A DNA stretch of 64,000 nt, taken from positions 37,207 to 101,206 of the forward strand of contig CAZEBR010000001.1 in assembly GCA_964510375.1 (NCBI GenBank), written 5' to 3'. The notes beneath the pieces are model-generated. The model searched no databases. It was not told the DNA's origin and was given only the letters and a program-made list of their open reading frames with translations. Numbering within the stretch: position 1 is the first letter of the stretch; every line of letters begins with the position of its first letter. This stretch comes from Candidatus Hadarchaeota archaeon (lineage in GTDB: Archaea > Hadarchaeota > Hadarchaeia > Hadarchaeales > JAGGTB01). Below are positions 326 through 38,943 of the stretch, in pieces. Position numbers and translations under genes: made by a program.

Positions 326-1204
326 TCAGTATGGATCAGGTCCGGTTACGGTCGGATTGTCCGGATAGGCGGTCCACTCGGTGAACGAGCCCTCGTAGTT
401 CTTCACGTTGTCGAAACCGAAGTACCATTTGAGAAGGATGAACTCGTTGGTAGCTTCCCTCCCGGTACCGCAAGAACAGATGACCTTTTTATCCTTTGTC
501 ACGCCGTGTTCTTCAGGGATTTTCTCTAGTTCGTCCTCGGGCTTCAGAAGTTTTGGATTTTCGTCTGCCATGAGACTCTTCCATGGTAGGTTAACCGCCC
601 CCGGTATGTGCCCCGGTTTAGCCCATATGGCCTGGCCTTCGTACATCTCCGCAGGTCTCGCGTCGAGCAATATAACGTCGTCTTCATCCTTCGTTTTCTT
701 GACTTCCTCCATGTCTGCCTTGTATTCTTCGCGGACGTCGACGTCGAAATCCGATCCCTCGATTTCCGGGAATTCTTTGGTAAGTTCCTTTCCTTCATCC
801 TTCCACTTGTCGATCCCGCCGTCCAGCACGTAAACGTTATCGTGGCCAAATCGGGCTAAGGAGTAGGCTGCCATCGTCTGTTCTAGCCCGTCTCCCCATC
901 CCCGGAAGGCGCCTACGCCCGTGTAAACGACTACCGGAGTGTCCGGTTTCAACCCGACCCTCCCGGCAAGCGATTCTACCACGCTTGGAGGAACGTAAAC
1001 CCCGGGTCTGCCTTTGTAGGGGACTCTCCACAGCCTCTGATTGAAGTATACTGATCCCGGAATGTGTTCTTTTATGTAGTCGTGAATATCCGGTTGTACA
1101 TCGAGTATGTTTATTTCCTCATTGTCCAGATTATCCTCGAGCCAATCAGTGGAAACCCACTTGATTTTACCCTCTCCGGACGGATAAGGTCCTTTTTCTT
1201 TCAC
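326..1204 (-). CDS. Tandem-rhodanese sulfurtransferase (thiosulfate/3-mercaptopyruvate sulfurtransferase family)
   Basis: 292 aa with two rhodanese domains; active-site Cys loop CSCGTGREAT near C-terminus; GGAGGTGA SD 5 nt upstream of ATG. Confidence 0.8.
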   Translation of the reverse strand: MKEKGPYPSGEGKIKWVSTDWLEDNLDNEEINILDVQPDIHDYIKEHIPGSVYFNQRLWRVPYKGRPGVYVPPSVVESLAGRVGLKPDTPVVVYTGVGAFRGWGDGLEQTMAAYSLARFGHDNVYVLDGGIDKWKDEGKELTKEFPEIEGSDFDVDVREEYKADMEEVKKTKDEDDVILLDARPAEMYEGQAIWAKPGHIPGAVNLPWKSLMADENPKLLKPEDELEKIPEEHGVTKDKKVICSCGTGREATNEFILLKWYFGFDNVKNYEGSFTEWTAYPDNPTVTGPDPY

Positions 1205-6057: not shown

Positions 6058-8097
6058 GTGTACCCGATTAATCTGGATCCGCTTTATCTCGATTCTCTAG
6101 AATCCCTCCGCGACATTCCTGGGATAGGCCGGAAAACGGCGGAGAGGCTTAAAGATTCCTTCGGTTCCGAGGAGTCTGCTTTGGAGGAGATTCGGAATGG
6201 CGATGTCGTCTCCCTGTCCAGCGTTTCGGATCTTTCCGAGGGTGATGCCTCGAGGATCATAAAAAATGCGATTGCAGAGGAGTACCGTTCCGAGAACCCT
6301 TTGAAGACCGAATCTCTGTCGGATATTTATGGGGACTTGCTCAACAGAATCAAGGAAAGGGCAAGGACCAAGTACGGCAAAGCGAGGTTGGACATTTACT
6401 TCCCTGTGTCTTCTGAGGAGAGAATAGAGGAGGTCAGGGAGTGGGTTGACATGGCCTTGAGCGTACGGGTCGATGGAAGTATCGAGGAGAGCATGGAGCG
6501 CGTATCCACATTGAAAGTCCCCGATAGAATCCATGTGGACGACAGAATTATACTAACGGACGATCTGGGGGAGCTAGAGAGGATTCAGGAGGAGATTCCG
6601 GGGGCTCAGGTCGATCTCGTCGATGATTACAGGGAGCTGAGGGACTACGTCAGGGAGTACGAGACGATATTTGTTTTGGGTGATGAATTTTCTGGAATTG
6701 ATATCGACTCGGAGTCGATAGAAAGGATACCCGGGGGTCTAGAGGACCCCTTGGAGGTCTTCCCGGAGATAGTCCTAAATTTTTTTACCGAAAACCTGGA
6801 ATCCATCGAGAACGCCATCGAAGTCCGTAAGAGAGTTGAAGCGCCTTTTCTGGATGACATCGACGGGGAGAGAATCGAAAAAGTCGAGAATTTGCTGTCT
6901 AATCTGGCTCCCGACGGGACCGTGAAACGGGAGGAAAATATTCGAAGGCTCGAGAATGCTTTGGAAAGGATGGGTGACGTTATAGAAAGGGCGGAATCTC
7001 GGGCAAACGATAGATTCGAGAAGCTCCTCGACGATAAGGAGATAACGATCCGCGGAAGCGATCTTAGGGGCCTGGTCAAAAACGGCGGCGAGGCGGATGA
7101 CTTGATCCGATCGGAACTGGGTGATGATTTCGATCGAATAGTTGAAGAAGCCGTCGAAGAGATAGTATCAGAGCTTGATTTGGATTACGAGGAGGAGGCC
7201 ATCGCCCAAGATTTGTTTGTCCAGGGCTTGGAGCTACCCTTGGAGGCCGATAAAGAAACGGTTAGCAGGTTGAGGGACGAGCTGAGGAGAAAGCATTCGT
7301 GGAAATCCCTAGAGACGAAGACACAGGTCGCCAGAGAGCTGGAAGATTTGCAGGAGGGTGTCGAGGATTTGGTTGATAAGGTTCTCGAACTAGATGCCGC
7401 CTTGGCGGTGAAGGAGTTTACGGAGGAAAATTCTATGACGATGCCGGAGTTCGACGGTCGAGGGTTTGATTTGAAGAGTGGAAAGAACATCTTTATCGAT
7501 AATCCGGAGTCGATAGATTACAAAGTCGAGGGCGTCAGGCTATTAACGGGCGTAAACAGTGGAGGGAAAACATCGGCCTTGGATTTGGTCGCCCAGTCTT
7601 ACGTACTTGCTCATATGGGATTTCCGGTTCCGGCAGAGGAGGCCAGGATTGAGATGATGGAGGAGTTCTATTACTATAGAAATATCAAGAAGACGATGAG
7701 TAGCGGTGCGCTCGAAAATATACTGAAGAGATTTGAGCGCTTGCTAGATTCTGAAGGCTCGAAGATCGTCCTCGTGGATGAGTTGGAAAACATTACCGAA
7801 CCTGGGGCTAGCGCCAAGATAGTTTCCGGGATCCTGGATATTTTAAAGACAGACGGCAGCGTAGCGGTCTTCGTCTCCCACCTAGCGGACAAGATTATGG
7901 AGAAAGCGAACTTTGAGATTCCCGTGGACGGCATTGAACCTGAGGGTCTCGATGAGGATATGAATCTGGTCGTCGACAGGTCTCCCAAGAGGGACTTGCT
8001 TGCCACTAGCACTCCCGAACTCGTCGTGAAAAAGCTCGGTAGCCGAAGTAACTCGGAGTTTTACGACGAACTCCTAGAGAAGTTTGACGGGTCGTAG
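6058..8097 (+). CDS. MutS-family (MutS2-like) P-loop ATPase with N-terminal helix-hairpin-helix DNA-binding region
   Basis: GTG start; N-terminal IPGIGRKTAERL HhH; MutS domain-V type P-loop LTGVNSGGKTSALDLVAQSYVLAHMGFPVPA and Walker B IVLVDELE; no mismatch-recognition domain; very acidic. Confidence 0.6.
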   Translation: MYPINLDPLYLDSLESLRDIPGIGRKTAERLKDSFGSEESALEEIRNGDVVSLSSVSDLSEGDASRIIKNAIAEEYRSENPLKTESLSDIYGDLLNRIKERARTKYGKARLDIYFPVSSEERIEEVREWVDMALSVRVDGSIEESMERVSTLKVPDRIHVDDRIILTDDLGELERIQEEIPGAQVDLVDDYRELRDYVREYETIFVLGDEFSGIDIDSESIERIPGGLEDPLEVFPEIVLNFFTENLESIENAIEVRKRVEAPFLDDIDGERIEKVENLLSNLAPDGTVKREENIRRLENALERMGDVIERAESRANDRFEKLLDDKEITIRGSDLRGLVKNGGEADDLIRSELGDDFDRIVEEAVEEIVSELDLDYEEEAIAQDLFVQGLELPLEADKETVSRLRDELRRKHSWKSLETKTQVARELEDLQEGVEDLVDKVLELDAALAVKEFTEENSMTMPEFDGRGFDLKSGKNIFIDNPESIDYKVEGVRLLTGVNSGGKTSALDLVAQSYVLAHMGFPVPAEEARIEMMEEFYYYRNIKKTMSSGALENILKRFERLLDSEGSKIVLVDELENITEPGASAKIVSGILDILKTDGSVAVFVSHLADKIMEKANFEIPVDGIEPEGLDEDMNLVVDRSPKRDLLATSTPELVVKKLGSRSNSEFYDELLEKFDGS

Positions 8098-8199
8098 GCT
8101 GTTTTCTCTGAAAGTTTTTACTGCCGACGAAATGTTTAAATAGTAAATGAATATATATTCTTAACTGAAAAGAATAAATATTCAAAAAGGTGGTGAATC

Positions 8200-8565
8200 A
8201 TGCCAAGAGGAGATGGAACTGGACCGACTGGCTCAGGCCCTATGACAGGTAGATCTTTAGGCTACTGCACGGGTTCCAATACCCCAGGGTTTGCGAGTTC
8301 GGCCCCTAGGATGTCAAATGGTCCTCGTCAGGGAGCTAAAGCATCAGGTCGTGCTGATAATTCCGGTCGTGGAGCAGGTCGAGGAAGGTCGGCTGGAAGA
8401 GGATCCGGTAATTCCGGACGTGGAAGAGGACCTCGAGGACGGTCCCAGTCCCTCGGATCGGCGACCTCTCAAAGACAAGTTAACACTAATTCCAGGCAGA
8501 ATAATCCGGCCAATAATCAGCGTGCCGGGGTCGGTCGTCGTACAGGGTCGGATAACAGGAGGTGA
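8200..8565 (+). CDS. DUF5320-like protein, N-terminal part (MPRGDGTGP...GPMTGR...GYC motif plus Gly/Arg-rich low-complexity); terminated by in-frame TGA
   Basis: Conserved N-terminal motif of a family I recall as DUF5320; TTTAAATA TATA-like box and AAGGTGGTGA RBS upstream; stop TGA at 8563-8565 is immediately followed in the same frame by ATG of next ORF. Confidence 0.5.
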   Translation: MPRGDGTGPTGSGPMTGRSLGYCTGSNTPGFASSAPRMSNGPRQGAKASGRADNSGRGAGRGRSAGRGSGNSGRGRGPRGRSQSLGSATSQRQVNTNSRQNNPANNQRAGVGRRTGSDNRR

Positions 8566-8910
8566 ATGTCAATGGGACAACACGGACATAGAAACATGTT
8601 TTACGCAACCGGTTTACCCGGATGGATGAGGTTCGGATACAGTCCCGGATGGGGTGGAATGCCCCCTTGCGCGCAGTACTTAGAACGGACGGAAAGGTTG
8701 TCCGAGGCCGTAGATTGGTTTAATCAGCAGACGGATGTCCAACCCAATCAGACGATTCAGGCAGATGTTTCCTATTCTCCTGCGTCTCAATCCCGGAGTT
8801 CGGAGCAAACTTCGGCGGATCAAGGGATTCAAGAACTGGAAGGCCGACTGAACGCTCTCAAAGATCGGATCGAACAAATCAGGGAAAAGCTCGAACAGTT
8901 GAAAGAATGA
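8566..8910 (+). CDS. DUF5320-like protein, C-terminal part (Gly/Pro/aromatic-rich region plus C-terminal coiled coil)
   Basis: Same frame as 8200-8565 and contiguous with it; GLPGWMRFGYSPGWGG mid-region and ELEGRLNALKDRIEQIREKLEQLKE coiled coil match the usual C-terminal half of this family. Confidence 0.45.
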   Translation: MSMGQHGHRNMFYATGLPGWMRFGYSPGWGGMPPCAQYLERTERLSEAVDWFNQQTDVQPNQTIQADVSYSPASQSRSSEQTSADQGIQELEGRLNALKDRIEQIREKLEQLKE

Positions 8911-9025
8911 CACTGGGGGATTCGTGAATGATAAGATTAATTGTAGCCGGCCAGAATGGCCGTTTGAAGGAAAGGTCCGTTTGAATAGACATGAAAAATC
9001 GGGGATGGGCTGAAGAATTTGAAAA

Positions 9026-9430
9026 ATGTTCAATCTTGCAAAAGTTGGTGGTGTTGTGAAAGTAGCGAGTAGTGCGGAAGGGCAGAGCTTGGACAGCCAA
9101 GTAAGTCCGGTTTTTGGACGATGTCAATGTTTCGTCATAGTGGGCTTGGAGGACGACAAAATAAAAAATAGCTATTGTCTTGAAAATGCGGCTGCCAGCG
9201 AATATAGCGGAGCGGGGACTGAGGCCGCTCAGATTGTCGGTGATGAGGAAACGGATGTCGTGATTTCAGGCTCCGTGGGGCCCAAGGCCTTTTCTGCCTT
9301 GAAACAGCGAAATATCCGTGTGTATAGGGGCAAGCCGGGCACAGTGAGAGAGAACATCGATAAACTTTCCAGAGGGGAACTGGAGGTAGTGGATTCCCCC
9401 ACCGGGTCCCCCCACATGGGACTCGATTAG
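9026..9430 (+). CDS. Dinitrogenase FeMo-cofactor-binding domain protein (NifX/NafY/NifB-C-terminal-like, PF02579-type)
   Basis: Family pattern VKVASS.G...VSPVFGRC..FVIV...D......GAG...A.IV....DVVISGSVGPKA...L....I.VY; probable alternative GTG start at 9056 with GGTGGTG RBS. Confidence 0.7.
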   Translation: MFNLAKVGGVVKVASSAEGQSLDSQVSPVFGRCQCFVIVGLEDDKIKNSYCLENAAASEYSGAGTEAAQIVGDEETDVVISGSVGPKAFSALKQRNIRVYRGKPGTVRENIDKLSRGELEVVDSPTGSPHMGLD

Positions 9431-9495
9431 TAATAAATCGGAAGAATCTGATTTCAAATTAATTAAGGTGTAAACACCTTATATACTGGAGGTCG

Positions 9496-9792
9496 TTGGA
9501 AGGAATGCCTAGACGTAGGAGAAGGAGAAGAGTCGGTTTTCGACCCAATCGGAAATACTTTGGTCCCGGACGAGGAAGGGCCAGCGACGAGGTGGTGATG
9601 AGGGTGGAGGAGCTAGAAGCTATCAGACTGAAGGACGGAGAGGGGTTTTCCCAGGTCGAGTCCGCGGAAAAGATGGATGTCTCTCAGCCGACTTTTTCTA
9701 GGATACTGGAGTCTGCTAGGCAGAAGGTAGCGGACGCTCTGGTAAACGGCAAGGCCCTTCGGATAGAGGGCGGGGACTATGAGGTTGTTTGA
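9496..9792 (+). CDS. DUF134 (UPF0251) family putative DNA-binding protein
   Basis: N-terminal [24 protein letters not shown] motif and C-terminal sigma-70 region-4-like HTH ([51 protein letters not shown]). Confidence 0.65.
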
Positions 9793-9839
9793 ATCGAAGG
9801 GAAATCCAATTATTTATTAATCTGTATAAATAGTGCGAG

Positions 9840-10685
9840 TTGAATAAAGATATGAACGAAGAAATGATGGAAAAGGCTCAGAAGGAAATGAAGGAAAGAA
9901 ACGAAAAAGTCGCCCAAAACATCGAAAGAGTCGATAATACGATAGCCGTGATGAGCGGCAAGGGAGGCGTCGGTAAGAGTACAGTTGCGGCCAATCTCGC
10001 CACCGAGTTGGCGGTGCAGGGTTACGACGTGGGTCTCATGGACTGCGACATGCACGGGCCGAGCATTCCGAAAATCGTGGGGATCGATTACGATCAGAGG
10101 CCGGAGGGGACCGATTCAAATATGAATCCCGTATCCACGGACGTGGGGCTGAAAGTAATTTCTATGGGGTCCTTATTGCCAGAGAGCGACTCCCCGGTCG
10201 TCTGGAGGGGCCCACTGAAGATGAGGGCTATACAGCAGTTTTTAGGCGATGTTAAGTGGGGTGATCTGGATTACTTGATCTTTGACCTGCCTCCAGGAAC
10301 GGGCGACGAACCCCTGAGCATAGCACAGCTTTTGCCTGATCCGGATGGCGCTGTCATAGTCACGACACCTCAGGAGGTGGCTCTTCAGACGATAAGAAGG
10401 GCGGTAAACTTTGCCAAAAAGGTCGATTTGCCGGTTTTGGGGATAATAGAGAATATGAGCGGTTTTGTTTGTCCCCATTGTGGTGAAAAATCCGATATAT
10501 TTAGCTCGGGTGGTGGCAAGGATCTCTCAGAAGAATTGAACATCCCGTTCCTTGGTAGCATTCCCCTTGATCAGGAAATAGTCGAAAGTGGAGAAGAGGG
10601 AAGACCAATAGTTCTGAAGGAAGGGTCCGATGCTGCGAAGGCCTTCAAGGATATTGTTTCCGACATAAAGAAGGCGTTGAGCTGA
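9840..10685 (+). CDS. Mrp/NBP35/ApbC family Fe-S cluster carrier ATPase
   Basis: Deviant Walker A VMSGKGGVGKST; conserved CPHCG cluster-binding motif; 281 aa. Confidence 0.85.
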   Translation: MNKDMNEEMMEKAQKEMKERNEKVAQNIERVDNTIAVMSGKGGVGKSTVAANLATELAVQGYDVGLMDCDMHGPSIPKIVGIDYDQRPEGTDSNMNPVSTDVGLKVISMGSLLPESDSPVVWRGPLKMRAIQQFLGDVKWGDLDYLIFDLPPGTGDEPLSIAQLLPDPDGAVIVTTPQEVALQTIRRAVNFAKKVDLPVLGIIENMSGFVCPHCGEKSDIFSSGGGKDLSEELNIPFLGSIPLDQEIVESGEEGRPIVLKEGSDAAKAFKDIVSDIKKALS

Positions 10686-11653: not shown

Positions 11654-11822
11654 TTATTTCACCTACGAATGTGATGATTGAGGTTGTCTCGGTCTCGAGA
11701 TAAATCTTACCCTCGTTTCAGACTTGAATGACTTGACGGGACCTAATGGCTCCCTTCGGTTCCTTTCGCTCGGATTCGTTCCACTGTCTCGGCTATAAAG
11801 TTTTTCAGGATTTAAGGATCGT

Positions 11823-12167
11823 TCAATGTTTTCCATTCCCGGGTTCGCAAAGGTTTTCACCTGAGTCTATATCCCCTTCCAGGAACTGTTCGATCACATT
11901 TTCGACCTCACCGTTCACTCCGCTGATTACTTTTATGCCCAAATCGTCGAATATGTTAATGGCTTTTCTCCCGATACCGCCGGTGATTATACAGTCCACG
12001 TTATTCTCGCTCATGAATTGGGGGATGTATCCCGGTTTGTGTCCGGGATTTTCGACTACATCCTTACTTTTCACCTTATTTCCCTCGATTTCTACGAAGG
12101 TGAATTCGGGACATCTACCGAAATGAGTTGCTACCATTCCAGAGTCTGTCGGTATGCCAACTTTCAT
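11823..12167 (-). CDS. Dinitrogenase FeMo-cofactor-binding domain protein (NifX-like, second paralogue)
   Basis: MKVGIPTDSGMVATHFGRCPEFTFVEI...NPGHKPG...NVDCIITGGIGRKA...GIKVI family pattern. Confidence 0.7.
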   Translation of the reverse strand: MKVGIPTDSGMVATHFGRCPEFTFVEIEGNKVKSKDVVENPGHKPGYIPQFMSENNVDCIITGGIGRKAINIFDDLGIKVISGVNGEVENVIEQFLEGDIDSGENLCEPGNGKH

Positions 12168-12315
12168 CCGTTTTCACCTCCTAGAACCTGTCCGTTTTTT
12201 TAAATTTATATTCATAAAACTCCTTTCCCGGTCAAGCCTAAAAATCCGTACTTTAAAAATGTCCCCCTGTGTTCTAGAAACTCTTTGAGTTCACGTTACC
12301 GGTTTATTGTCGGCT

Positions 12316-13161
12316 CTATACCAACGAGCCTATAAGAAAGGCGATAAGGCCCGATCCCATCCCTATCTTGTAAACGAGCGAGGCTCTTTTTGCAGCCAGT
12401 TTTTCCTGACTTTTTGCAATGATTGCTATTCCTGTGAGGAAGGATAAAATCGGGACCGTTACGACGTAGAGGTACAGTCTTCCAAATATGTTCCACAGGT
12501 AAGGTAGTGGGGTCAGAATAATCGCTATAACGGTGAACGTGATAGCCAGCCCTGCTGCTTTTTTTCTGCCGTGTTCAAGAGGGAAGGACTTTGATCCGGA
12601 TTTTTTGTCCCCCTCGATGTCCTCGATATCCTTTATCAGTTCTCTACCTGCGGTCGAGAATGCGGCCATGGCGGCCATGATGCCGGCTGTTTGGAATCTA
12701 CCCACCGCAAGGCTTCCGAACAAGAAAGTAGATCCCACCAGGAAACTTATTGCAACATTTCCGACCAATCCCCTCTTCTTCAAGCTCCGAGCGTAATAAT
12801 AAAGCAAAATCGAGTTGGCGGAGGCGAGTATCAGACATGATAATCTCCACGTGAGAGCGGAGTAGACGATTCCGACCGCGAAGAGTATCCTGCTTATCGT
12901 GAGGGCGTCCGATGGACTAATTCTTCCTGATGGTATGGGCCTATCCGGATTGTTCACGGAGTCGAGTTCCCTGTCTGCGTAATCATTTACCGAGTTCCCA
13001 GCCCCTGCGATAAAGGCCGCGGCCACGAAGGCGAAGATGATTTCGAATGAGGGTATTCCTCCGGCCCCGATAATTCCGCCTATGAGAACCCCTATTCCCG
13101 CCAGAACGCAGTTATGCGGCCTTATTAGTTCCAGTGCTGCCTTTCCATTCATGTTGATCAC
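12316..13161 (-). CDS. UbiA-family prenyltransferase, likely digeranylgeranylglyceryl phosphate (DGGGP) synthase
   Basis: 281 aa, ~8 TM; Asp-rich motif GNSVNDYADRELDSVNNPDRPIP; size and pattern fit archaeal DGGGP synthase. Confidence 0.6.
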   Translation of the reverse strand: MINMNGKAALELIRPHNCVLAGIGVLIGGIIGAGGIPSFEIIFAFVAAAFIAGAGNSVNDYADRELDSVNNPDRPIPSGRISPSDALTISRILFAVGIVYSALTWRLSCLILASANSILLYYYARSLKKRGLVGNVAISFLVGSTFLFGSLAVGRFQTAGIMAAMAAFSTAGRELIKDIEDIEGDKKSGSKSFPLEHGRKKAAGLAITFTVIAIILTPLPYLWNIFGRLYLYVVTVPILSFLTGIAIIAKSQEKLAAKRASLVYKIGMGSGLIAFLIGSLV

Positions 13162-38271: not shown

Positions 38272-38943
38272 ATGAATGAAGAAGATGGCATGCCGCTTAT
38301 TGGGGACAAGTTCCCGGAAATGGAAGTTAAAACGACCTTCGGGGATAAGAAGCTTCCCGACGACTACGAGGGGAAGTGGCTCTTGCTATTCTCGCATCCG
38401 GGTGATTTTACGCCCGTCTGCACTACGGAATTCTACTCTTTCCAGAAGAGGTACGAGGACTTCAAAGATCTTAATACGGAACTGATAGGGCTCAGTATAG
38501 ATCAGGTACACAGTCATATGAAGTGGGCCGAGTGGATCGAAGACAATCTAGGAGAGGAAATCAAGTTTCCAATAATTGCTGATGACCGGGGAAAAGTGGC
38601 CGAAAAATTGGGCCTTATTCATCCCGGGGCAGGAACAGCAACCGTCAGGGCCGTATTTATCGTCGATCCGGAGTCTACCATCAGGGCGATACTTTACTAT
38701 CCCGCGGAGCTCGGAAGAAACATGGACGAGTTTATCAGGATGATTAAGGGTTTCCAAGTGTCAGACGAACAAGGCGTGGCTATTCCTGCGAATTGGCCGG
38801 AGAACGAGCTTATGGTTGATGACGTTATTATTCCGCCAGCCAGCGACGTTGAAACTGCAAAGGATCGTCTTGAAAAGGCGGATGCTGGCGAGTTTGACTG
38901 TTACGACTGGTGGCTCTGTCACAAGAAGCTCGATGCTGACTGA
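38272..38943 (+). CDS. Peroxiredoxin (Prx6-type thioredoxin peroxidase)
   Basis: FTPVCTTE peroxidatic Cys motif; 223 aa; C-terminal CHKKLD-type region. Confidence 0.85.

What the first reader, a model, noticed from the sequence alone, without database searches (positions are those of the whole stretch)
8200..8910. DUF5320-like gene split by a single in-frame TGA (8563-8565) with the next ATG abutting in the same frame
ORF 8200-8565 carries the family's N-terminal MPRGDGTGP..GPMTGR..GYC motif and Gly/Arg-rich region. ORF 8566-8910 carries the Gly/Pro/aromatic mid-region and the C-terminal coiled coil that normally complete the same protein. They are in the same reading frame, separated only by TGA, so together they form one canonical full-length member. 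Possible explanations are a recent nonsense mutation (pseudogene or split gene), a sequencing error, or stop-codon readthrough/recoding. No other gene in the window shows in-frame TGA, so a genome-wide code change is unlikely.
Basis: seen in the sequence. Interest (0 to 1): 0.5.

Follow-up and report, generated by a model that had tools for sequence, protein, structure and literature searches.

The report
Naturally split DUF5320 two-gene pair
The "gene broken by a TGA" is an ordinary, evolutionarily conserved pair of adjacent small genes (the two halves of a DUF5320-type protein). The first gene's stop codon sits inside the ribosome-binding site of the second, so this is not a pseudogene, a sequencing error or a recoding event.

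Summary
ORF1 (8200-8565) carries the DUF5320 N-terminal motif, ends at TGA 8563-8565, and the same frame continues into ORF2 (to 8910).

The anomaly reading is not supported. All seven closest lineages found (Hadarchaeota genomes L015-L017, metagenome and read-assembly loci L095/L096, L102, L103) have the same two-gene layout:
- An N-half ORF of 106-129 aa.
- A stop (TGA in three, TAA in three; the window's own is TGA).
- A 13-16 nt spacer holding a Shine-Dalgarno sequence (GAGGTGA).
- A C-half gene starting MGQHGHRNMFYATGLPGW.

That start matches the window's second ATG (8572). Three relatives are out of frame or have a second in-frame stop, so readthrough cannot be the conserved mechanism.

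In the window the stop is the TGA of AGGAGGTGA (8557-8565), 6 nt before ATG 8572. That spacing is typical of translationally coupled genes.

Stand-alone C-halves are the majority among ORF2's relatives. Fused forms also occur, including one in an equally close relative (P0001). TGA is a normal stop in this window (14 of 48 long ORFs).

Verdict: ordinary, low interest. In passing, I found a conserved TATA box plus palindrome (GAATATATATTC) upstream of ORF1 that recurs across archaeal loci.

The parts
8135..8142 (+). TATA-box-like TTTAAATA of the operon promoter
   Evidence: Invariant in the alignment of regions upstream of ORF1 and of its homologues in L001, L015, L016, L017 and L095. Coordinates read.
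8149..8160 (.). Perfect 12-nt palindrome GAATATATATTC, a candidate operator just downstream of the TATA box
   Evidence: Invariant in all six aligned promoters. The pattern GAATAWATATTC occurs in 45 of 101 fetched loci, usually 4-5 nt after a TATA-like box.
8172..8183 (.). Second, imperfect palindrome GAATAAATATTC
   Evidence: Present in the window, L001, L015, L016 and L095; absent in L017.
8188..8196 (+). Shine-Dalgarno-like AGGTGGTGA for ORF1. Its TGA (8194-8196) also closes the frame upstream of ATG 8200.
   Evidence: There are 3 nt between GGTGA and the ATG.
8200..8565 (+). ORF1: N-half of DUF5320. It holds the MPRGDGTGP..GPMTGR..GYC motif, an RG-rich region and a polar tail. It is 121 aa and very basic (K+R 21, D+E 3).
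   Evidence: Pfam PF17253 at 7e-11. It keeps all 23 invariant columns of the N-half alignment and has a length like the relatives' N-half ORFs of 95-129 aa.
8557..8565 (+). Shine-Dalgarno AGGAGGTGA for ORF2. Its last three bases are the ORF1 stop codon TGA (8563-8565).
   Evidence: Other genes in the window show the same GGAGGTGA 4 nt before their start codons (326-1204 minus strand; 38272-38943). Relatives have GAGGTGA 5 nt before the C-half ATG.
8572..8910 (+). ORF2: C-half gene (112 aa, MGQHGHRNMFYATGLPGWMRFGYSPGWGG ... Q/P-rich linker ... C-terminal helix). An alternative start, ATG 8566, would add Met-Ser.
   Evidence: The first 37 residues are identical to the L015 C-half. The exact 112-aa product from 8572 is in the public protein collection. 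63 of 81 related cluster representatives match from their first 16 residues. The AF2 model shows a helix at 80-111 and little other order.
9026..9430 (+). Downstream operon gene: NifX/NifB-like Nitro_FeMo-Co ('Di-Nase') domain protein
   Evidence: Pfam PF02579 at 7e-20. Syntenic in L001, L015-L017 and L095.
9496..9792 (+). Downstream operon gene: DUF134 helix-turn-helix protein, the candidate regulator
   Evidence: Pfam PF02001 at 2e-23. Syntenic, at 65-78% identity in relatives.
9840..10685 (+). Downstream operon gene: Mrp/NBP35-type P-loop ATPase (an Fe-S cluster carrier family). It ends with TGA.
   Evidence: Pfam PF10609 at 1e-99. Syntenic, at 63-78% identity in relatives.

Best explanation
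ORF1 and ORF2 are two real, separately translated genes, and together they are the conserved 'split' form of a DUF5320 protein. They are the first two cistrons of an operon (DUF5320-N, DUF5320-C, NifX-like, DUF134, Mrp/NBP35). The operon is driven by a conserved archaeal promoter with a palindromic operator.

ORF1 terminates at the TGA that forms the 3' end of the Shine-Dalgarno sequence AGGAGGTGA. ORF2 starts 6 nt later at ATG 8572, or possibly at the abutting ATG 8566.

I infer from this spacing that ribosomes finishing ORF1 re-initiate on ORF2, or that new ribosomes are recruited by the Shine-Dalgarno sequence. Either route would give roughly matched amounts of the two halves. The halves would then presumably associate to do what the single-chain protein does in other organisms.

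That function is unknown. Gene context links it to Fe-S/metal-cluster handling proteins of the ORP (orange protein) type.

Shown: the conserved two-gene architecture, start, Shine-Dalgarno sequence, synteny and promoter.
Inferred: translational coupling, physical association of the halves, and the functional link to metal-cluster proteins.
For: 1. All seven closest lineages are split. L015, L016, L017 (Hadarchaeota), L095/L096, L102 and L103 each have an N-half ORF of 106-129 aa, then a stop, a 13-16 nt spacer containing GAGGTGA or GGGGTGA, and a C-half gene beginning MGQHGHRNMFYATGLPGW (in L103, TTG-GRHGHRNMYNLTGLPGW).
2. Stop identity and frame vary: TGA in frame (L015, L016, L095), TAA out of frame (L017, L103), and TAA plus a second in-frame TAG (L102). 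What is conserved is two ORFs, not a readable junction.
3. N-halves align over their whole length with ORF1. They are annotated as separate proteins in public records, for example MFP4005678.1.
4. All 80 best C-half loci among GTDB species representatives are stand-alone ORFs. 63 of 81 related cluster representatives match from residues 1-16.
5. Shine-Dalgarno use and spacing in the window fit ATG 8572.
6. Operon synteny is conserved. The TATA box, palindrome, Shine-Dalgarno sequence and start upstream of ORF1 are conserved too, so ORF1 is set up for expression.
7. TGA is a normal terminator here, used by 14 of 48 long ORFs including Mrp and ORF2 itself.
8. Intergenic distances of -8 to +10 nt predict termination-reinitiation coupling and are enriched for subunits of heteromeric complexes (PMC10666635).
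Against: - There are no expression, read-level or proteomic data for this locus. The only independent assembly found (L014) covers 8990-10589, not the TGA.
- ORF1's exact product is absent from the public protein collection while ORF2's is present, so a gene caller probably skipped ORF1.
- ORF1's tail has lost the Tyr/Pro/Trp-rich character seen in most relatives. Its GC3 (0.38) is lower than its neighbours' (0.52-0.61).
- A fused version exists in an equally close relative (P0001/L001), so single-chain and split states interconvert.
- Four of the seven lineages plus the window keep the halves in frame with a single TGA. This does not formally exclude some readthrough.
Confidence: 0.85

Rival explanations
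1. Recent nonsense mutation: a formerly single DUF5320 gene was truncated, and the locus is a pseudogene or a freshly broken gene.
For: - Canonical family members are single chains of about 130 aa (P0009 matches Pfam positions 1-99).
- A fused 183-aa version sits in the same operon context in relative L001.
- The two ORFs are in frame with only one stop between them.
Against: - Seven related lineages have the same two-ORF layout, with a Shine-Dalgarno sequence and a conserved start for the C-half.
- ORF1 carries a tail of about 45 aa, homologous in position to the relatives' N-half tails, that fused forms lack. A point mutation in a fused gene cannot produce this structure.
- The stop is part of a perfect Shine-Dalgarno sequence.
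- The N-terminal motif, promoter and operator are intact.
Confidence: 0.03
2. Sequencing or assembly error created the TGA in what is really one ORF.
For: - The region encodes low-complexity Gly/Arg repeats.
- The window appears to come from a metagenome-assembled contig. The exact ORF2 product is recorded from one NCBI contig of 145,029 bp.
- No independent assembly covering the site was found.
Against: - A stop just before the C-half start is what every close relative has. L016's N-half product is recorded from both an NCBI and a Logan assembly.
- There is no tandem repeat at DNA level.
- The TGA lies within a canonical Shine-Dalgarno sequence identical to those of other genes in the window.
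Confidence: 0.03
3. Programmed recoding: the TGA is read through (as selenocysteine, Trp or a near-cognate amino acid) at some frequency, giving a fused 236-aa isoform in addition to, or instead of, the two halves.
For: The window and three relatives (L015, L016, L095) keep the halves in frame with a single TGA. In L095 the first two spacer codons differ from L015/L016 only synonymously.
Against: - L017 and L103 are out of frame with TAA, and L102 has TAA plus an in-frame TAG.
- L015, L016 and L095 share the 15-nt spacer, probably by common descent (inferred), so they are not independent.
- No Cys or Sec is aligned at this position in fused homologues.
- There is no tRNA in the window and no Rfam hit even at E<=1 across 8100-9100.
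- The 3' UTR has only a 6-bp hairpin.
- TGA terminates 14 of 48 long ORFs.
Confidence: 0.05
4. Only ORF2 is functional. ORF1 is a decaying remnant of the N-half gene that is still open by chance.
For: - ORF1 is missing from the public gene calls while ORF2 is present.
- Its tail is compositionally divergent, with no aromatic residues, and its GC3 is atypical.
- Most stand-alone C-half genes in other phyla have no MPRGD-type gene immediately upstream (73 of 80 loci).
Against: - ORF1 retains every invariant residue of the N-terminal motif (23 columns).
- It passes the Pfam threshold.
- It keeps a Shine-Dalgarno sequence, its ATG and a fully conserved promoter and operator.
- It stays open for 121 codons, with a length matching the relatives' N-halves.
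- The low GC3 follows from Gly/Arg codon choice.
Confidence: 0.06

Closest known systems
Pfam PF17253 (DUF5320), canonical single-chain members (e.g. P0009, 135 aa)
   Same: - Same N-terminal MPRGDGTGP-GPMTGR-GYC motif, Gly/Arg-rich linker, aromatic ATGLPGW segment and C-terminal coiled-coil helix.
- Same neighbourhood of Nitro_FeMo-Co, DUF134 and Mrp/MinD-type ATPase genes.
   Different: - Here the modules lie on two polypeptides.
- ORF1 has an extra polar tail of about 45 aa.
- ORF2 alone does not reach the Pfam threshold.
Split DUF5320 pairs of Hadarchaeota and relatives (L015, L016, L017, L095, L102, L103; e.g. MFP4005678.1 plus the downstream gene)
   Same: - Same gene order, and the same C-half start (the first 37 residues are identical to L015).
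- A Shine-Dalgarno sequence before the C-half.
- Same promoter with TATA box and GAATATATATTC palindrome, and same downstream operon.
   Different: - The spacer is 13-16 nt in relatives, but 0 or 6 nt in the window, where the stop codon is embedded in the Shine-Dalgarno sequence.
- The window's N-half tail is Ser/Asn/Gln/Arg-rich instead of Tyr/Pro-rich ending in Trp.
- The window has one NifX-like gene where relatives have two.
Translationally coupled gene pairs (termination-reinitiation; Huber et al., PMC6728339 and PMC10666635)
   Same: - The two genes are co-directional, with an intergenic distance inside the -8 to +10 nt range that predicts coupling.
- The Shine-Dalgarno sequence lies within the upstream coding region.
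- The products plausibly form a complex.
   Different: - The commonest coupled arrangements are 4-nt or 1-nt overlaps (ATGA, TGATG), whereas here stop and start abut or are 6 nt apart.
- Coupling is not demonstrated for this pair.
ORP (orange protein) gene cluster of Desulfovibrio (MrpORP, Orp3/4, Orp8; PMC6345978)
   Same: The cluster combines an Mrp/NBP35 ATPase with Nitro_FeMo-Co ('Di-Nase') domain proteins. In relatives L001 and L003 it also has two CbiA-ferredoxin ATPases like Orp3/Orp4.
   Different: - No DUF5320 component of the ORP complex is described in the papers I could read.
- The window lacks the Orp3/4-type genes next to this operon.
- The functional link is by context only.
Archaeal selenoprotein genes (in-frame TGA plus 3'-UTR SECIS)
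   Same: A single in-frame TGA between two conserved protein segments.
   Different: - No Cys/Sec homology at the site.
- Relatives use TAA or are out of frame.
- No SECIS-like element or tRNA-Sec was found.
- TGA is a regular stop here.

Membership tests
Pfam DUF5320 (PF17253) | N-terminal MPRGDGTGP..GPMTGR..G.C motif scoring above the gathering threshold | tested here: met
   ORF1 scores 43.6 bits against a cut-off of 27, at profile positions 1-63. All 23 invariant alignment columns are kept.
Pfam DUF5320 (PF17253) | The whole profile (positions 1-99: motif, aromatic segment and C-terminal coiled coil) present in one polypeptide | tested here: not met
   ORF1 stops at profile position 63. 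ORF2 gives no DUF5320 hit at E<=0.1, and the concatenated sequence still matches only positions 1-63. Orthologous C-halves score 20-26 bits, below the cut-off of 27, over positions 23/35-99.
Split DUF5320 pair (Hadarchaeota type, defined here from relatives) | A separate N-half ORF of about 105-130 aa that ends just before a Shine-Dalgarno sequence | tested here: met
   ORF1 is 121 aa and its stop lies inside AGGAGGTGA. Relatives' N-halves are 106-129 aa.
Split DUF5320 pair (Hadarchaeota type, defined here from relatives) | C-half gene starting MGQHGHRNMFYATGLPGWMRFGYSPGWGG and ending in a coiled-coil helix | tested here: met
   From ATG 8572 the first 37 residues are identical to L015. The AF2 model shows a helix at 80-111.
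Split DUF5320 pair (Hadarchaeota type, defined here from relatives) | Operon context (NifX-like, DUF134, Mrp) and a promoter with TATA box plus GAATATATATTC | tested here: met
Selenoprotein gene (archaeal type) | The in-frame TGA aligns with Cys or Sec in homologues | tested here: not met
   The position falls in a non-conserved tail/spacer. Fused homologues have no Cys there, and relatives have TAA or a different frame.
Selenoprotein gene (archaeal type) | SECIS stem-loop in the 3' UTR | tested here: inconclusive
   Only a 6-bp hairpin at 8948-8962, and no Rfam hit at E<=1. I do not know whether Rfam holds an archaeal SECIS model.
Selenoprotein gene (archaeal type) | tRNA-Sec, SelB and SelD encoded in the genome | not testable with these tools
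   Only 64 kb are available. There is no tRNA of any kind in the window.
Genome with TGA reassigned to a sense codon | TGA not used as a terminator of conserved genes | tested here: not met
   TGA ends 14 of 48 long non-overlapping ORFs. These include the Mrp ATPase, whose Pfam domain is complete 5 residues before the stop.
Termination-reinitiation coupled gene pair | Co-directional genes with an intergenic distance of -8 to +10 nt | tested here: met
   The distance is 0 nt to ATG 8566 or 6 nt to ATG 8572. The criterion comes from PMC10666635.
Termination-reinitiation coupled gene pair | Translation of the downstream gene depends on translation of the upstream gene | not testable with these tools
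   This needs reporter fusions or ribosome profiling.

The most novel reading that the evidence does not exclude
The in-frame single-TGA junction, kept in the window and in three related lineages, is exploited for low-level or regulated UGA readthrough. The operon would then make three products from two cistrons: the N-half, the C-half and a minor fused full-length DUF5320 isoform. This would tune the ratio of split to single-chain protein.
Probability: 0.04. Interest if true: 0.5.

Novelty: new member of a known kind. Interest (0 to 1): 0.15.

Why it matters
For the finding itself the value is mostly in annotation. The locus should be annotated as two genes, with ORF2 starting at 8572. It should not be flagged as a pseudogene, a frameshift/stop artefact or a selenoprotein candidate. 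ORF1, which public gene calls apparently miss, should be added.

More broadly, DUF5320 turns out to be a modular, low-complexity family whose halves are repeatedly fused, split, deleted or paired with other Gly/Arg-rich partners. That is useful to know before anyone studies the function of these proteins in the ORP-like metal-cluster operons of anaerobes.

The by-product may be of more interest than the finding. It is a strongly conserved promoter-proximal palindrome shared by DUF134, NifX-like, Mrp and DUF5320 genes across archaeal phyla. It offers a directly testable hypothesis for the function of DUF134.

Tried and rejected
- Exact-sequence look-ups of ORF1 and of ORF2 from both starts found no gene positions. 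The only independent assembly of the same organism (Logan contig L014, 100% identical) starts at 8990 and misses the TGA, so the base call could not be checked.
- tRNA and Rfam scans were empty, both at gathering thresholds on the whole window and at E<=1 on 8100-9100.
- Folding of the 3' UTR and of the junction showed nothing SECIS-like.
- NCBIfam gave no family for either ORF.
- The AlphaFold2 model of ORF2, built on a 17-sequence alignment, had low confidence (pLDDT 58). It showed only a C-terminal helix, so I ran no fold search.
- The literature holds nothing functional on DUF5320 (2 incidental mentions) and nothing relevant on the palindrome.
- The original ORP-complex paper (PMC3133258) is not held. 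I could not check whether any ORP-cluster small protein is a DUF5320.
- The sigma-70 promoter/terminator scan and the tandem-repeat scan were uninformative.
- The alternative-frame ORF 8291-8629 that crosses the junction was considered and dismissed as a by-product of stop-poor Gly/Arg codons. It is not in the protein collection either.

Full report
**1. Observation**

The sequence is as described.
- ATG 8200 opens a 121-codon ORF: MPRGDGTGPTGSGPMTGRSLGYC..., followed by RG-rich repeats and a polar tail.
- It ends at TGA 8563-8565. The next codon is ATG 8566 in the same frame, and that frame runs to TGA 8908-8910.
- ORF1 passes Pfam DUF5320 (43.6 bits, cut-off 27), but only over profile positions 1-63 of 99.
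- ORF2 holds the aromatic segment ATGLPGWMRFGYSPGW, a Q/P-rich linker and a C-terminal helix (AF2 helix at 80-111; the model is otherwise low-confidence and disordered).
- ORF2 alone does not hit DUF5320 at E<=0.1, and joining the two ORFs does not extend the Pfam match.
- Homology of ORF2 to the C-terminal part of the family is nevertheless clear. The fused 183-aa homologue P0001 is 54% identical to it, with E=4e-45 for the joined query. Orthologous C-halves match profile positions 23/35-99 just below threshold.

**2. The junction**

The DNA reads ...GAT AAC AGG AGG TGA ATG TCA ATG GGA CAA CAC...
- The stop codon is the last three bases of AGGAGGTGA (8557-8565), a full Shine-Dalgarno (SD) sequence.
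- Other genes in the window carry the same GGAGGTGA 4 nt before their start codons. ORF1 has AGGTGGTGA 3 nt before its ATG.
- ATG 8572 lies 6 nt after the SD; ATG 8566 lies 0 nt after it.
- The 112-aa product from 8572 is the one present in the public protein collection.

**3. Relatives**

A scan of GTDB species-representative genomes with a C-half alignment returned 362 relatives.
- In all 80 best loci the C-half is a stand-alone ORF (classification by motif regex).
- The three closest are Hadarchaeota MAGs (L015, L016, L017; 53-58% identity).
- A metagenome scan added L095/L096 at 57%.
- A profile search with the N-halves added L102 and L103.

All of these have the same layout:
- An MPRGD-type N-half ORF of 106-129 aa.
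- A stop codon.
- A 13-16 nt spacer containing GAGGTGA (GGGGTGA in L103), 5 nt before the start.
- A C-half gene beginning MGQHGHRNMFYATGLPGW. In L103 it has a TTG start and begins GRHGHRNMYNLTGLPGW.

| Locus | Stop of N-half | Spacer | Frame relative to C-half |
|---|---|---|---|
| L015, L016, L095 | TGA | 15 nt | in frame |
| L017 | TAA | 16 nt | out of frame |
| L103 | TAA | 13 nt | out of frame |
| L102 | TAA | 15 nt | in frame, but the spacer ends in an in-frame TAG |

Sources for the table are. What is conserved is two ORFs with an internal ribosome-binding site, not a junction that can be read through.

Further points:
- The N-halves align with ORF1 along their whole length.
- They are present as separate proteins in public collections, one named 'DUF5320 domain-containing protein', MFP4005678.1.

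**4. Wider family**

- An exhaustive phmmer search of 1.84 billion cluster representatives with ORF2 gave 81 hits. In 63 of them the match starts within the first 16 residues, meaning a stand-alone C-half. In 18 it starts at residue 25 or later, meaning fused forms or spurious hits.
- Fused forms occur among close relatives too. P0001 (L001) sits in the same operon behind the same promoter. Its Mrp and DUF134 neighbours are 74% and 78% identical to the window's, as close as those of the split-gene genomes.
- Further variants fuse the N-half tail directly to the Q/P-rich linker and lack the GLPGWMRFGYSPGW segment (P0206, P0208, P0178, P0213, P0215).
- The family is therefore modular and plastic. 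The split state is old and widespread, and the window is one more member of it.

**5. Rival readings**

- Recent nonsense mutation or pseudogene. This is contradicted by the conserved layout, by the ~45-aa N-half tail that fused forms lack, and by the intact motif, SD, promoter and operator.
- Sequencing error. It cannot be checked at read level, because L014 covers only 8990-10589. It is also unnecessary, since a stop here is the expected state.
- Code change. TGA ends 14 of 48 long ORFs, including Mrp, whose Pfam domain is complete just before the stop.
- Selenocysteine or readthrough.
  - Homologues have no Cys/Sec at the site.
  - Three lineages cannot be read through.
  - No tRNA, Rfam hit or SECIS-like fold was found.
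  - A minor readthrough isoform in the in-frame lineages is not formally excluded; I put it at about 4-5%.
- Decaying ORF1.
  - Points in favour: it is absent from public gene calls, its tail is divergent and its GC3 is low.
  - Against this, its invariant residues and expression signals are intact.

**6. Mechanism**

Shown:
- A conserved archaeal promoter (TTTAAATA, 8135-8142).
- A perfect palindrome GAATATATATTC (8149-8160) and a second half-conserved copy (8172-8183).
- An SD sequence and ORF1.
- An SD-embedded stop and ORF2.
- Downstream, NifX-like (9026-9430), DUF134 (9496-9792) and Mrp/NBP35 (9840-10685), syntenic with relatives.

Inferred:
- The 0/6-nt distance lies in the range (-8 to +10 nt) shown experimentally in Haloferax and E. 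coli to support termination-reinitiation coupling. That range is enriched for subunits of heteromeric complexes (PMC10666635). The two halves are therefore probably made in matched amounts and associate.
- The biochemical role is unknown. The context resembles the Desulfovibrio ORP cluster: an Mrp-type Fe-S carrier plus Di-Nase domain proteins, and in L001/L003 the Orp3/4-like ferredoxin-ATPases (PMC6345978).

**7. Verdict**

- It is a new member of an existing, though undescribed, split subfamily of DUF5320.
- Interest is low.
- The side observation on the conserved palindromic operator is potentially more valuable and is listed separately.

Noticed in passing
window 8135-8183; also L001 1590-1633, L015 2565-2613, L016, L017, L095 and many ANME-1/Methanophagales loci (e.g. 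L024 1881-1892, L033 1597-1608 and 2037-2048): A TATA-like box is followed 4-5 nt later by the perfect palindrome GAATATATATTC. The pair is invariant upstream of ORF1 and its homologues. The pattern GAATAWATATTC occurs in 45 of 101 fetched loci from Hadarchaeota, ANME-1, Syntropharchaeia and others (my estimate of chance is about 0.001 per locus). It sits directly in front of DUF134 genes (MPGRRRCRCVGF...), NifX-like genes (MKICVTATAGDLNAQVDPRFGRCQYF...), an Mrp gene, small Gly/Arg-rich genes and the DUF5320 genes. It looks like the operator of a conserved regulon, with the autoregulated DUF134 HTH protein as the obvious candidate repressor. The held literature has nothing relevant.
   Followed up: partly
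L020-L091 (ANME-1/Methanophagales and relatives), e.g. L024 2770-2973: In these loci the stand-alone C-half gene is preceded not by an MPRGD N-half but by a 51-72 aa protein. That protein has a Gly/Arg-rich N-terminus and a four-Cys zinc-ribbon (…GPGGECRCPNCGYTMPHQ.GVPCYQQTCPKCGSKMTRP). This suggests the C-half pairs with interchangeable Gly/Arg-rich, Cys-containing partners.
   Followed up: partly
L008 3686-4531: Another stand-alone C-half (P0023) lies 6 nt after a 102-aa Gly/Arg/Phe/Tyr-rich ORF that has no Pfam hit. The two are in the same frame but separated by two consecutive stops (TGA TAG).
   Followed up: partly
proteins P0206, P0208, P0178, P0213, P0215; P0007, P0017, P0095, P0209, P0211: Two further architectures occur in the same family. 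In one, the N-half with its tail is fused directly to the Q/P-rich linker and coiled coil, without the ATGLPGWMRFGYSPGW segment. In the other, proteins carry two tandem MPxxDGTGP motifs. The family evolves by frequent module fusion, fission, deletion and duplication.
   Followed up: no
window 8200-8565 versus the rest of the window: ORF1 is extremely basic (K+R 21, D+E 3 in 121 aa; RGG-like repeats). Neighbouring proteins look very acidic on reading, for example the MutS-like 6058-8097 (not quantified). One related contig's name (SL_8KL_010_SED...) looks like a soda-lake sediment sample (my reading of the name only). ORF1's exact product is absent from the public protein collection, although ORF2, the NifX-like and the MutS-like products of the same contig are present.
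   Followed up: partly
window 8911-9025: Relatives have two NifX-like genes between the C-half and DUF134. The window has only the second, leaving a 115-nt gap after ORF2 with a small GC hairpin at 8948-8962.
   Followed up: no
window 12201-12214: A weaker (2-mismatch) palindrome-like site, TAAATTTATATTC / TGAATATAAATTT, lies in the intergenic region between ORFs 11746-12126 (+) and 12316-13161 (-). It may be another operator or just chance: 7 matches were observed against 1.8 expected, and 4 of 100 shuffles reached 7.
   Followed up: no
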